Source of the DNA: Eledone cirrhosa
Taxonomy: Eukaryota
Direction of reading: 5' to 3'
Length of the DNA: 64,000 nt
Assembly: GCA_964016885.1 (NCBI GenBank)
Contig: OZ024743.1
Span: 21,824,001-21,888,000 of the forward strand
Program-made: the position numbers and the translations under genes
Shown: piece after piece, positions 3,625 to 64,000 of the stretch
Position numbering within the stretch: position 1 is the first letter of the stretch
Layout: every line of letters begins with the position of its first letter
Notes under the pieces: generated by a model
What the model was told of the DNA's origin: nothing
The model's database searches: none
Seen by the model: only the letters and a program-made list of their open reading frames with translations

Positions 3625-4340
3625 GAAATCAATAAATTACATGAATACGGCTAATTCTATAATTGAAGGACTAATATTTATTACATAACTTACACGTGTT
3701 TCATTAATACGTAAACAATTACATCTAGAATCGCTAAACCAATGAAGATATCGGGATAAATCGACTTCGAATATGTTGCATCGTAAGTTCAAATATCAAC
3801 TTATCAAAGCAGAATAACGCCCTTATCCTTTCAAGGAAAGATATTTATAGAGAGAAGGTATGCCGTCAAGAAAGAAGTTAGGTTGTATAAAGTCATAAAA
3901 TATAAAGAAATATATTGAAACATACAAAAAGATATACAAATTTATGAGTTCTTAAGCAATAAACAATAATAACATTAACATTGATAGTAATAATATTAAC
4001 ATTTTTTTTTTATATAGGGCGGGGTTGCTTGAGTTCAACAGGAGTGGCAGTTGATTTGTTGAATACAGGATAGCTAGATGACCATTGGCTAGTACCAGAC
4101 CATTCACACTGAGATCAAAGGAATTTGTTATCGGTATTCCTAGCAGATAGTAGTAATTTATTTTGACGTTTTAATGTTTTCATAGATAAGGTTGAGCCCC
4201 ATCTTCCATCCTTCTGATCCCATGAACTTACTAATATAGTAATAAACAATTCCTAGTTTTTTTTTATATGATTAAAGGGGTTGGTTATGGGATCAGATCC
4301 TATATTAGGCTTATAGTTGGAGAAATTTGTAAACGGTTTA
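3625..4340 (-). mobile_element. Probable Penelope-like element 3' fragment with decayed hammerhead
   Basis: Minus strand has a HHR-like motif at 3688-3810, followed by AATAAA, and ends in a TA/TG microsatellite; no intact ORF. Confidence 0.45.
3688..3810 (-). ncRNA. Decayed type-I hammerhead ribozyme with very long helix II loop
   Basis: GCU-uUGAUaA-GUUGAU...(~90 nt)...AUUAAU-GAAAC-ACGU-GUA-AGU; two core substitutions; palindromic helix III. Confidence 0.55.
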
Positions 4341-4411
4341 CTGATTGCAGTGTTGCTACGTAACCCCAGTTAGTCAAGGTTTTTATAACACACACACACA
4401 CACATGTGTGT

Positions 4412-4900
4412 GTATTATAAAATGCTGACTAACTGGGGTTGCGTAGCAACATTCCATTTAGTAAATAATTATGTAATTAAGTTAAACCACTCAACATCAT
4501 GTGTATCCTTCCAATTCCCACGTGGTAGTCAGTGATAGAGTATATGTAAATAATGACAAAAATGCAAAGGCTTGATATAGATTTCCATAATTCATTTTAT
4601 CCTGTTATATGTATTCCTGTGGCTTTAATAATTACGTAATGCTGCCATCACACAGCTTCATCAGACAGCATCTTAAGTAATAAGTTTGTTGTGTAAGATA
4701 TCTAATGGAATATAGGCTATTGGTAAGGGGACAAACTTGTATTTGATGTTGGTCTTATAAGAGTCTGTCCCCTTATCAATAGCCTGTATTCCATTAGATA
4801 TCTTACACAACAAACTTATTACTTAAGATGCTGTTTGATGAAGCAATGTTAAACTGCAATGTTAACAAACTGATGTCATTTGAGACAACACATCAGCTGG
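4412..4900 (-). mobile_element. PLE-like terminal remnant with decayed HHR and 83-bp inverted duplication
   Basis: Inverted arms 4655-4737 and 4762-4844; minus-strand CUGU-CUGAUGA-AG-CUGUG...CACAG-GAAuACAUAUA-ACAG at 4602-4668. Confidence 0.55.
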
Positions 4901-16417: not shown

Positions 16418-16628
16418 TAGTAGAACACTGGTGGGTTATATCCATAGTAGTAGAGCACTCAGTCCATGGGATGAGTTTGGTAGAAGTAGTTCCACAACAG
16501 TTAGGTCGCCATCATTGAGAATAATTGTTTCACCTTATTCGGATCATCATTTTAAACCGAGCTGATGATTTGAATAAGGTGAAAAAATTGTTCTCAGTAA
16601 TGGTGAACTAACAGTTGTGGAACTACTT
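16418..16628. mobile_element. Short fold-back element containing a minimal hammerhead
   Basis: Imperfect ~66-bp inverted arms 16484-16549 and 16563-16628; flanked by (TA)n and (GA)n. Confidence 0.75.
16556..16598 (+). ncRNA. Minimal type-I hammerhead ribozyme (slightly decayed)
   Basis: Consensus of the two arms: ACcGAG-CUGAUGA-UCC-GAAUAA-GGU-GAAAC-AAUU-GUU-CUCAGU. Confidence 0.7.
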
Positions 16629-21527: not shown

Positions 21528-21616
21528 TATATTTGAAAAAAGGAAAAGAATGACTTCACTTGTAGTTCTTGTTTAGAATTACAAGTGAAGTCATTCTTTT
21601 CCTTTTTTCAAATATA
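21528..21616. repeat. 42-bp inverted repeat (1 mismatch), 5-nt loop
   Basis: tatatttgaaaaaaggaaaagaatgacttcacttgtagttct / agaattacaagtgaagtcattcttttccttttttcaaatata. Confidence 0.95.
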
Positions 21617-24786: not shown

Positions 24787-24838
24787 TGCATGCAAGCCTG
24801 TCAAATGTATATATATACATTTGACAGGCTTGCATGCA
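24787..24838. repeat. Perfect 52-bp palindrome centred on (TA)n
   Basis: tgcatgcaagcctgtcaaatgtatat|atatacatttgacaggcttgcatgca. Confidence 0.97.
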
Positions 24839-41430: not shown

Positions 41431-42210
41431 TCATCATCGTTTAACGTCCATCTTCCATGCTTGCATGGGTTTGGACGGGAGTTTTCCCACTTGGGCAAGA
41501 TTGGTTGTCTTGCTCGCATAGGACTGTCTGGCGGGTTTTCTACGGCTGGATGCCCTTCCTAACACCAACCACGTTTACAGTGTGGACTGGGAGGTTTTTA
41601 CCGTGTTACCTACACGGCCACATTACAGCGTGGACTGTGTGTTTTTTTTGTTGTGACACCTACACGACCTCATTTATTTCGGACTGGATGTTGTGGTACC
41701 AACATAACTTTACATCGAAAGGGGTGGTGTGGATGGAGTGGGGGTGGTGGGGCGGGGGTGTATTTTTGTTAGAGGTGCCTACTGACTGTAGGTTTCGCTT
41801 TGTACTTAGGCAAGGCGAGTCTTCTGTATTACTGTGTAGCGCCAAAGATCTCGGTCCAGTGACATTATCTTGGAGAGGTGTAAGTGTGTGAGGTCGGATT
41901 TATCAAGTCGTCCCAGGTTTTTCTGGTTCTGCTTACTCCGTGGCTACCGTCTATTTTTATCGCCTAGCACTTTTTTATACAGCCATCGTCTTTCATTCGC
42001 ATCACGTGACCATACCAGCGTAGTCTTTTCTCGAGTAAACAACATCTGATCCCTCTTATTCCTAATTTCTCCCTTAGCTCATTTATGCTTTGCCGTTCAC
42101 GTATATTACTATTACACATCCAACGGAGCATGCAAGCTTCGTTCCTCTCCAGTCTGCGTATATCCTCTGCACACAATGCCCAGGTCTCACTGCCATGTAA
42201 TATTGCTGTT
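41427..42210 (-). mobile_element. RTE LINE 3' fragment (copy 2)
   Basis: Reverse-complement homologue of ~27055-27847; ORF CAEDIRRLERNEACMLRWM...RWYGHVMR; (GAT)n tail. Confidence 0.95.
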
Positions 42211-42365
42211 ATTATTAGTACAGACTAAAGTTTAAGTAAAGTATTTCTGCTTTCACCCTATTACAATGATCCCCATAATAGGGTGATCCTGTAATAGGAT
42301 GAAAGCAGAAATTCTTTGCTTAAACTTTAATCTGTACTAATAATAAATATTTCCTCTACAGGTTT
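42209..42365 (+). mobile_element. Short fold-back element with HHR 3' half
   Basis: Arms 42209-42265 and 42290-42346; right arm AUCCUG-UAA-UAGGAU-GAAAGCAGA-AAUUC-UUUGCUU; ends in (TA)n. Confidence 0.6.
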
Positions 42366-46951: not shown

Positions 46952-47082
46952 AAGAAAGGAGTTGTGGTAAGGAACTAGATGGACCATAACGCACCAGAGT
47001 ACTCAATACTTAGGGTGGTAGAGTCCAGAAATAGCCATCGAAACGGCTTGAGCTCTGCCGTCGGGGTCATACTTTTTCCTAT
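46952..47082. mobile_element. Short HHR-half element, deletion derivative of the 62704-62899 type
   Basis: Near-identical to 62704-62899 but lacking 62777-62841; flanked by (TA)n on both sides. Confidence 0.85.
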
Positions 47083-54528: not shown

Positions 54529-54876
54529 TCATCATCATCATCATCATTTCATTTTACGTCCGCTTTTTCCTTGCTTTCAAGGGTGGGACGGGAACTGATT
54601 CTGGCTTGATTTCTACAGCTGGATGCTCTTCCTAACACCAACCTCATTTACAGTGAGTGCTGAGTGTTTTTTGTTCCGTGGTGCCTACACGTCCACTTTG
54701 CAGTGGAATGATATGGACCCCAGTCCCTATCATCTCATTTCTACAGCTGAGTAAACTGGAGCAATGTGAAATAAAGTGTCTTGCTCAAGGAAACAACACA
54801 TCACCCGGTCTGAGAATTGAACTCACAACCTTTCGATTGCAAGCCCAATGCTCTAACCACTAAGCCATGTGCCTCC
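54529..54876 (-). mobile_element. SINE family B, full length
   Basis: Close homologue of 37738-38084 with A/B boxes and (GAT)n tail. Confidence 0.9.
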
Positions 54877-59917: not shown

Positions 59918-60103
59918 TGTTTCTACTTTAGGCACAAGGCCAGCAATTACCCAGTGCATTACTGGTACTTTATTTTATCGAGCCCGTAAGGATGAAAGGC
60001 AAAGTCAACCTCGGTGGGATTTGAACTCTCAGATCGTAAAGGGACGTAGCTATGCTGGAAAGCATGGTGTCTGACCCTCTACCGATACTGCCAATCCACC
60101 GCC
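59918..60103 (-). mobile_element. SINE family A, full length, with 12-bp TSD
   Basis: TSD ctacaagataat at 59906-59917 and 60104-60115; head ggcggtggattggcagtatcggtagag; B box gagttcaaatcc. Confidence 0.92.
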
Positions 60104-60223
60104 CTACAAGATAATGTTTTATTATTACACCTGTGTCGAAGACGAGTGTAATAGTTATATATATATATATATATAGAAAGGATAAAAAGGACGATTGATT
60201 ATTCCTTCATTGCATTTATTGAT

Positions 60224-62461: not shown

Positions 62462-62703
62462 CACACACATACGAGTGGAAAAGAAGAAATAATCTATGCT
62501 GGGAAAGTTGTCAAAATAATAAGGAGTGTGTAAAAATAATTTTGCAGTACTTGTATATTTTATGTATGAATTTATCAGCAAACATTTTGTGTACAATAAA
62601 TAATATACACCGGCACTAGGCTACGATAGCTTGAGTAAATGAACTGCTTAATGCTATATATGTATATCTATATAGATATGTGTGTGAATATATATATATA
62701 TAT

Positions 62704-62899
62704 AACAAAGGAATTGTGGTAAGGAACCAGATGGACCATAACGCACCAGAGTACTCAATACTTAGGGTAGTAGAGTGGGAAATAGGAAAAAGTATGACCC
62801 CGACAGCAGAGCTCAAGCCGTTTCGACGGCTATTTCTGAGTCCAGAAATAGCCGATGAAACGGCTTGAGCTCTGCCGTCGGGGTCATACTTTTTCCTAT
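62704..62899 (-). mobile_element. Short fold-back element with HHR 3' half (57-bp arms, 4-nt loop)
   Basis: Arms 62782-62838 and 62843-62899 with 3 mismatches; GAAACGGC-uugagcucu-GCCGUC-GGGGUC; (TA)n on both sides. Confidence 0.85.
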
Positions 62900-62916
62900 A
62901 TATATATATATATATA

Positions 62917-63062
62917 TTCGTATGTGGTTGACGGCTGAGAGAAAAAAGTACTCAATATCAAAGTAGGTAGAGTTTTAATATTCATTTTATTAGGCTAAAT
63001 ATTGAGTCTTGGTTACCCCAGAGCACCAAGTCTCACTATTTAGGCTTAATAAAAATGAATGA
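62917..63062 (-). mobile_element. Short fold-back element (~35-bp imperfect arms)
   Basis: attcattttattaggctaaatattgagtcttggt (62980-63013) / accaagtctcactatttaggcttaataaaaatgaat (63025-63060). Confidence 0.65.
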
Positions 63063-63080
63063 ATATATACATGTATATAT

Positions 63081-64000
<920 letters not shown>

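What the first reader, a model, noticed from the sequence alone, without database searches (positions are those of the whole stretch)
62704..62899. Cleanest case: 57-bp hairpin whose apex sits at hammerhead helix II
Seen: GACGGCUAUUUCUG-[4 nt]-CAGAAAUAGCCGUC (arm consensus) directly precedes GAAACGGC-uugagcucu-GCCGUC-GGGGUC. Helix III has 5 bp with a GAGCUC palindrome in its loop and a GUC cleavage triplet. The CUGANGA half is replaced by the mirror image of the 3' half. Inference: cDNA self-primed on the helix II stem. This predicts a parent reading GACCCC-CUGANGA-(N)-GACGGCUAU....
Basis: partly seen in the sequence, partly recalled or inferred. Interest (0 to 1): 0.72.

Follow-up and report, generated by a model that had tools for sequence, protein, structure and literature searches.

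The report
Penelope hairpin marks capped RNA start
This 195-base insert is one of many thousands of head-to-head stubs of a Penelope-type jumping gene in this animal genome; its turning point likely marks the capped start of the element's RNA, which lies inside the loop of its hammerhead ribozyme motif, and it was not made by DNA folding back on the ribozyme stem.

Summary
The hairpin is real (54 of 57 pairs, 4-nt loop). It is a 195-bp insert in (TA)n of a Hydra-clade Penelope-like retrotransposon (PLE); up to 16,887 such hairpins exist. The parent's hammerhead motif has a UUGANAA (U3-A8) core, not CUGANGA, and a 33-nt loop on helix II. Snap-back on helix II would keep that loop: 0 matches genome-wide. 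Arms stop at an initiator-like A 29-31 nt behind a TATA-like box inside loop II, often with a non-parental G before it (24 of 100 arms versus 1 A; 0 of 89 parents). 87 of 90 hairpins join one long and one short end; either arm may reach further (27 versus 24); 57 junctions differ among 69 copies. Best reading: two cDNAs, primed on both sides of the cut from two fixed sites, ran off the capped RNA start and were end-joined. No RNA data. Inverted copies, tails and PLE hammerheads are published; I found no paper placing the apex at the cap. This scan reached the same reading before on other DNA (e1-10353012, e1-9550100).

The parts
62690..62704 (.). (TA)n target on the long-end side; ATA 62702-62704 is shared between target and element
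   Evidence: sequence; the parent continues TAT at this point
62705..62838 (-). long arm: element RNA sense on the minus strand, from +5 to the long end; likely cDNA 1
   Evidence: matches parent L053 with 5 of 135 differences
62705..62781 (-). unpaired 'tail' between the short and the long end (80 nt from TAT to TAT)
   Evidence: ends at offsets 30 and 110; 87 of 90 hairpins carry it on one arm only
62753..62776 (-). predicted small bulged RNA hairpin (4 bp, 2-nt bulge, 4 bp) just beyond the short end; a twin lies just beyond the long end in parents
   Evidence: 228 long arms tallied; twin seen in 6 read-through loci, and in L193 and L199 all four upper pairs differ from hairpin 1 yet pair
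62782..62838 (+). left hairpin arm, 57 bp
62838..62842 (+). junction: G 62838 (last base of the long arm, possibly also the cap-derived G of the short arm), then AGTC; A 62839 is the predicted transcription start (+1)
62839..62899 (+). short arm: element RNA sense, +1 to the short end; likely cDNA 2
   Evidence: 2 of 61 differences from parent L053
62857..62885 (+). 3' half of the hammerhead motif: GAAA, helix III with palindromic loop, GUC (predicted cut after 62879), helix I 3' strand
   Evidence: sequence; full motif in parents
62897..62918 (.). (TA)n target on the short-end side; TAT 62897-62899 shared
   Evidence: sequence
46953..47082 (+). second copy of the family: short arm intact to +1, long arm cut inside the tail, joined over a 3-4 nt microhomology (GAGT 47021-47024)

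Best explanation
This is a stub insertion of a Hydra-clade Penelope-like retrotransposon in a (TA)n run, made of two head-to-head pieces of the element's terminal repeat, and it likely arose when both sides of the cut target primed reverse transcription and both cDNAs ran off the predicted capped 5' end of the RNA and were end-joined. Shown: the parent element, its hammerhead-like fold with a U3-A8 core, the two fixed outer ends 80 nt apart, the pile-up of inner ends at one position (+1) in loop II, mixed junctions, and an excess of non-parental G at -1. Inferred: the GIY-YIG nuclease cuts (TA)n; each 3' end pairs with a UAU in the RNA next to one of two small bulged hairpins; RT copies about 60 or about 140 nt to the RNA start and adds C opposite the cap or a few A; host end joining fuses the two cDNA ends, with trimming, 0-4 nt microhomology or templated inserts. 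Inferred too: the promoter (TATA-like box on the 5' strand of helix II, initiator-like A 29-31 nt on) lies inside the ribozyme motif, so the transcript would begin with only its 3' half. The stub lacks promoter, ORF and the 5' half of the ribozyme and is likely inert.
For: Parent with RT and C-terminal GIY-YIG ORF, direct pLTRs and an inverted arm: L083, L080, L081. Core tally in 84 parent regions: U3 68, U4 77, G5 76, A6 82, N7 free (A19 C33 T16 G16), A8 80, A9 80, G10.1-C11.1 79, GTC 71. The parent folds as a three-way junction, z -2.5. 11,192 + 5,695 hairpins. In 69 consecutive hairpins (C1:1-24.68 Mb) the further-reaching arm reaches +1 in 36 and +2 in 18, with 57 different junctions. Of 77 arms intact to +1, 66 match a parent 0-4 nt further, 11 match 5-9 nt, none more. 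In the first 30 arms of an unselected list, 22 stop between about -4 and +13, 8 read on beyond -35, none in between (read by eye; five pairs are two arms of one locus). 87 of 90 join a long and a short end. Long arm further 27, short further 24, within 1 nt 36 (p 0.78). In the subfamily whose parent has C at -1: C 56, G 24, T 19, A 1 among 100 arms (50 of 188 loci listed; counted by eye, first 30 arms confirmed by script); parents have G at -1 in 0 of 89. TATA-to-+1 spacing is 29-31 in 83 of 84 while the spacer changes between subfamilies. An A-to-T change in helix II's 3' strand is not compensated (1 of 100 listed), as expected if the 5' strand is held by a TATA box. Precedent: both strands cleaved and extended, two internal RT start sites that bound the tail (PMC11167929); extra G from capping at full-length L1 5' junctions (PMC11702581); TATA and Inr in a pLTR (PMC3846280).
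Against: No transcript data: the start site and the cap are read from DNA only. 56 of 100 arms carry the parental base at -1, and 3 of 50 loci reach -7 to -14, so the 5' end is not a single base. In the window's own (T at -1) subfamilies the G excess is weak (G 11, A 4, C 8, T 40 of 63 arms). The TATA tally was conditioned on a TATT[T/C]A filter; TATA and Inr consensus are recalled and are short motifs in AT-rich DNA. Loop flipping after insertion could also symmetrise long and short arms. Rfam finds no hammerhead in the parent, and cleavage is untested. A second family gave no clear promoter.
Confidence: 0.7

Rival explanations
1. One cDNA runs to the RNA 5' end, folds back on itself with little pairing, copies itself, and joins the far target end at the short TAT; the loop is later flipped in about half of the copies by recombination between the arms.
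For: Many junctions are near-perfect palindromes with 0-2 nt overlap; the strict long-plus-short pairing (87 of 90) fits one ordered reaction.
Against: In 24 of 87 the short arm reaches at least 2 nt further 5' than the long arm, including this copy; many hairpins have different -1 bases on the two arms; long inserts with kilobase arms of unequal reach show the same long/short ends.
Confidence: 0.12
2. The arms end where RT stalls at an RNA structure (the inner stem in loop II), not at a transcription start.
For: The parent of the window's subfamily folds an inner 7-bp stem whose 3' strand spans +1.
Against: The inner stem sequence differs between subfamilies while the stop position, the TATA-like box and the initiator-like motif stay; RT passes the stronger helices I, III and II first; a stall does not explain G 24 versus A 1 at -1.
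Confidence: 0.08
3. Long inverted insertions lost their centre later by palindrome-induced deletion, leaving short hairpins.
For: Long inverted inserts with the same ends exist; long palindromes are unstable (established knowledge).
Against: Deletion would not stop both arms at the same 10-nt window in all subfamilies, nor add G or A runs; overlap is 0 or negative in 50 of 69 junctions.
Confidence: 0.05
4. A MITE-like non-autonomous family founded by one fold-back event and amplified as a unit.
For: The 30 best hits to this copy share its junction in one or the other orientation, or a one-base variant of it.
Against: That set was selected by the query. Unselected copies have 57 junctions in 69, and 22 of 23 and 21 of 21 differ within the two largest subfamilies; this copy's junction occurs in more than one subfamily and in both orientations.
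Confidence: 0.03
5. One reading: the cDNA self-primed on the helix II stem.
For: The parent does have a 9-bp helix II in this subfamily, and the apex lies near it.
Against: The predicted product keeps the 33-nt parental loop: 0 exact matches genome-wide and none among the 50 long-gap hairpins listed. The left arm runs on through the complement of loop II's 3' end, which helix II's 5' strand does not contain. Another hairpin family in the window (16484-16628) turns upstream of its whole core.
Confidence: 0.02

Closest known systems
Hydra clade of C-terminal EN+ Penelope-like elements (Craig et al. 2021, PMC8557442; section 11 and supplement passages read)
   Same: RT plus C-terminal GIY-YIG; RWR/RWK, DKT, CxCX5C linker, CxxC and CxH around E/N; under 3 kb unit; (TA)n targets; hammerhead near the 3' end; inverted 5'-truncated copy and a tail at one end. 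By eye the protein follows Hydra-1_Obim motif by motif.
   Different: A different family from Hydra-1_Obim, whose hammerhead is canonical (CUGAAGA, 8-nt loop II); here U3-A8 core, 31-33-nt loop II with a promoter-like layout, 80-nt tail instead of 30-40. Two family motifs had 0 hits in the supplement text (line breaks could hide them).
PLE hammerheads, including the U3-A8 variant of Schistosoma Cercyon elements (Cervera and de la Pena 2014, PMC4209133; parts 1-2 of 4 read)
   Same: Type I, short helix I, G10.1-C11.1, palindromic loop III, U3-A8 core; motif pairs 100-700 bp apart on opposite strands are mentioned.
   Different: Here a 5-bp helix III and a long loop II. In the parts read, that paper does not describe half-ribozyme hairpins or a transcription start inside the motif.
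Poseidon PLE of Anolis in vitro (Frangieh et al. 2024, PMC11167929; parts 1-2 of 4 read)
   Same: Both target strands are cut and extended; RT starts internally at two sites that bound the tail, near the pLTR-ORF junction.
   Different: There no difference of start site between strands and no homology to the target was seen; here 87 of 90 inserts use one site on each side and both ends share TAT with the target. The inner junction was not mapped in the parts read.
LINE-1 twin priming and cap-derived extra G (PMC11702581; passages read)
   Same: A second RT event from the other DNA end gives an inversion; an extra G marks a complete 5' end and can serve as microhomology.
   Different: In L1 the first cDNA starts at the poly(A) end and the two pieces do not overlap; here both start near the RNA 5' end and copy the same stretch, giving a palindrome.

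Membership tests
EN+ Penelope-like element (parent) | single ORF with RT and GIY-YIG endonuclease | tested here: met
   RT motifs (LYRDD) and AYIG motif in L080, L081, L083; Pfam GIY-YIG only E 0.069, below cut-off, no RT family hit; no PDB hit; close by eye to Hydra-1_Obim
EN+ Penelope-like element (parent) | pLTRs in direct (partial tandem) and inverted orientation | tested here: met
   L083: two direct pLTRs 2834 bp apart plus an inverted arm
EN+ Penelope-like element (parent) | tail at one end only | tested here: met
   87 of 90 hairpins; 80 nt rather than 30-40
Hydra clade | RWK, DKT, CxCX5C, CxxC/CxH, no CCHH, (TA)n target | tested here: met
   motifs read in translations against the clade description; RWR or RWK by copy
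Hydra clade | placement in an RT tree | not tested
   no reference proteins held as stored sequences
type I hammerhead (parent) | core CUGANGA...GAAA...NUH | tested here: not met
   literal CUGANGA absent; U3-A8 variant core with free N7 in most of 84 parent regions, C3 with A8 in a minority (C3 11 of 84); Rfam no hit
type I hammerhead (parent) | three helices around the core | tested here: met
   helix I 4-5 bp, helix II 6-9 bp, helix III 5 bp; predicted fold z -2.5; little covariation inside this young family, one uncompensated change in helix II; L141 folds otherwise at minimum energy
type I hammerhead (parent) | self-cleavage at GUC | not testable with these tools
   needs in vitro transcription
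type I hammerhead (this stub) | 5' half of the core | tested here: not met
   replaced by the inverted arm
MITE / amplified non-autonomous family | copies share one structure and symmetric terminal repeats | tested here: not met
   57 junctions in 69 copies; ends asymmetric
non-LTR retrozyme | tandem units, each with a whole type I hammerhead | tested here: not met
   single inverted unit with half motifs; definition from bioRxiv 10.64898/2026.07.22.740005, part 1

The most novel reading that the evidence does not exclude
PLEs replicate through a retrovirus-like strong-stop step. RT starts twice near the RNA 5' end, one site per target strand, and runs to the cap. It must then jump to a 41-nt terminal redundancy (+1 to the GUC) that the hammerhead cut leaves at the RNA 3' end. 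The promoter inside loop II keeps the 5' ribozyme incomplete, so only the 3' one can cut. The hairpins are the failed jumps; read-through and more-than-unit copies such as L083 (which passes +1 a second time, to about -38) are the successes. This would give the PLE hammerhead a job and explain tail, inverted copy and pLTR with one scheme.
Probability: 0.25. Interest if true: 0.8.

Novelty: new variant of a known kind. Interest (0 to 1): 0.45.

Why it matters
How PLE insertions get their inverted 5' copy and one-sided tail, and what their hammerheads do, are stated as open in PMC8557442 and PMC11167929. Many thousands of independent stubs give a base-level record of where copying starts and stops. 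They predict a transcription start to the base, a cap signature and one start site per target strand, all testable by CAGE and by the existing in vitro PLE system. For annotation, such hairpins should be filed as PLE debris, not as MITEs or ribozyme genes. The locus itself is ordinary: one dead copy among very many.

Tried and rejected
CTGANGA upstream of the 3' half: 19 hits, all hairpin apexes or chance context. Rfam on the window (one tRNA-like hit) and on a parent pLTR (no hammerhead at E up to 10). Pfam and PDB on the ORF: weak or none. Loose half-hammerhead scan of the window gave many chance hits and was not used as evidence. Generality test on the older family at 63108: pattern search 0 hits; 29 related loci too decayed to place a core or promoter. 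A 3' splice site at the apex (CAG) was considered and dropped because arms begin before, not after, the AG. First arm-parsing script let each arm choose among five parents and overstated upstream reach; replaced. Paper searches found no paper that maps PLE inversion points to a capped start; the library lacks most subscription papers, including earlier Penelope promoter work cited in PMC8557442. PMC10018344 (one passage) was irrelevant. Assembly artefact rejected: arms carry private mutations, fixed asymmetric ends and varied inserts.

Full report
Observation. The hairpin is as described: arms 62782-62838 and 62843-62899, 54 of 57 pairs, loop AGTC. The 3' half of a hammerhead follows on the + arm (GAAAC 62857, 5-bp helix III with a GAGCTC palindrome in its loop, GTC ending 62879, GGGGTC). 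The left arm runs on for 77 unpaired bases to 62705, and (TA)n flanks both ends. The window lies in a 3.0-Gb eukaryote genome; an octopus-like animal is my inference from genome shape and the likeness to Hydra-1_Obim, not a tool result.

Parent. Requiring CTGANGA upstream gave 19 hits, none a parent ribozyme, but long-looped hits revealed the true upstream sequence. That 33-mer has 885 exact matches. These loci hold a Penelope-like element: an ORF with RT and C-terminal GIY-YIG motifs, direct pLTRs 2834 bp apart and an inverted arm (L083). RWR/RWK, DKT, CxCX5C, CxxC and CxH motifs and the (TA)n target match the Hydra clade, and the protein follows Hydra-1_Obim by eye. Pfam and PDB add little. 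No tree was built.

Ribozyme motif. In 84 distinct parent regions the core reads U3 U4 G5 A6 N7 A8 A9. Position 7 takes all four bases, G10.1-C11.1 holds in 79 and GTC in 71. U3-A8 is a published PLE variant (PMC4209133). Helix II is 6-9 bp and closes a 31-33-nt loop. The region folds as a three-way junction (z -2.5). Rfam misses it. Activity is untested.

Self-priming on helix II would leave the parental loop between the arms. That junction has 0 exact matches and is absent from the 50 long-gap hairpins listed. The real left arm is the complement of the parent's 3' part right into loop II. In this copy the short arm starts at +1 and the long arm at +5, so the short arm holds four bases that the long cDNA lacks.

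The population. Hairpins with exact 13-bp arm anchors number 11,192 (gap up to 30) and 5,695 (gap 31-61). I fetched 90 of the 100 listed; 69 form the complete set for C1:1-24.68 Mb. Of 90, 87 join a long end to a short end 80 nt apart. Junctions are 57 different strings in 69, and nearly all differ within subfamilies, so they were made independently. The further-reaching arm reaches +1 in 36 and +2 in 18 of 69. Of 77 arms intact to +1, none matches a parent more than 9 nt further. These searches cap the gap, so I also read the first 30 of 51,587 arms found without that cap: 22 stop between about -4 and +13, 8 run past -35, none between (by eye, some paired). An exact pattern for read-through arms gives 2,012, a lower bound because it misses sequence variants. 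Either arm may reach further: 27 long, 24 short, 36 ties.

Why +1. The stop position is an A in TTAGTC or TCAGTA, 29-31 nt behind TATTTAT or TATTTAAA in 83 of 84 parents, while the spacer changes between subfamilies (the TATA tally was filter-conditioned; consensus recalled). The TATA-like box overlaps helix II's 5' strand, and an A-to-T change on the 3' strand is left uncompensated in 99 of 100 listed copies. In the subfamily with C at -1, 100 arms intact to +1 show C 56, G 24, T 19, A 1 (50 of 188 loci; by eye, 30 arms checked by script), while 0 of 89 parents have G there. G over A has p 1.5e-6; G among non-parental bases against one third has p 0.003. An extra G at a complete 5' end is the known trace of the cap in L1 (PMC11702581). 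T runs at -1 fit A added to the cDNA or starts 1-3 nt upstream. Against: most arms carry the parental base, a few reach -14, the signal is weak in this copy's subfamily (G 11 of 63), and no RNA run was listed.

Outer ends. Both ends fall at a TAT shared with the target. I checked it here: a 4 bp, 2-nt bulge, 4 bp hairpin starts 9 nt into the tail (228 arms), and a like hairpin starts 7 nt after the long end in 6 read-through loci. In L193 and L199 all four upper pairs differ from the first hairpin yet pair. Predicted energies are small (-1 to -6 kcal/mol) and there was no shuffle control. The neighbouring insert at 62935-63075 has a similar motif in its tail.

Mechanism. Most likely the nuclease cuts (TA)n, each target end primes RT at one of the two sites, both cDNAs run off the capped start, and end joining fuses them. 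Cutting and extension of both strands and two internal start sites are shown in vitro for an Anolis PLE (PMC11167929); the rest is inferred.

Novelty. Inverted copies, tails, pLTR promoters and PLE hammerheads are in print (PMC8557442 passages, section 11 and supplement finds; PMC3846280 parts 1-3 of 5; PMC4209133 parts 1-2 of 4). My nine searches found no paper that places the inversion point at the capped start or a promoter inside hammerhead loop II; subscription papers were not searchable. I reached this reading before consulting the scan's notes. The notes hold the same reading for other DNA of this genome and other genomes; they are unchecked and not independent support. Verdict: real, a new variant of a known kind, interest 0.45.

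Noticed in passing
window 62935-63075: A second fold-back insert right beside the finding (29-bp arms, 79%), of another family, whose tail carries a similar small bulged-hairpin motif.
   Followed up: partly
window 63108-63266: Older fold-back family with a hammerhead-like 3' half (GAAAC, AAGCTT palindrome, GTA); 93 candidates in the genome; parent core not recovered.
   Followed up: partly
window 16484-16628: 66-bp hairpin whose arms hold a whole CTGATGA...GAAA minimal hammerhead; apex lies upstream of the core, so apexes are not tied to helix II.
   Followed up: partly
window 42209-42346; L031, L077, L139, L068: Hairpin of a very common family whose parent has a CAGAAGA core variant after a pyrimidine run ending in AG; two single-arm copies begin with a G in place of the parental C about 20 nt before the core.
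   Followed up: partly
window 4655-4844, 4337-4465, 21528-21616, 1892-1943, 24787-24838: Further inverted repeats of 22-83 bp; family not determined.
   Followed up: no
L108, L120, L186, L238: Runs of 13-23 A or T between or before arms at +1, as if RT added A repeatedly at the RNA end.
   Followed up: no
L230:1400-1650: A short arm of this family intact to +1 is joined directly to a hairpin of the unrelated 42209 family.
   Followed up: no
L127, L128, L150: A subfamily has C3 with A8 in the core (CTGAGAA), a mismatch at the 3-8 pair, yet has full copies.
   Followed up: no
window 54810-54867 (-) and about 60000-60105: tRNA-like Rfam hit and a tRNA-like stretch by eye, probably SINE heads.
   Followed up: no
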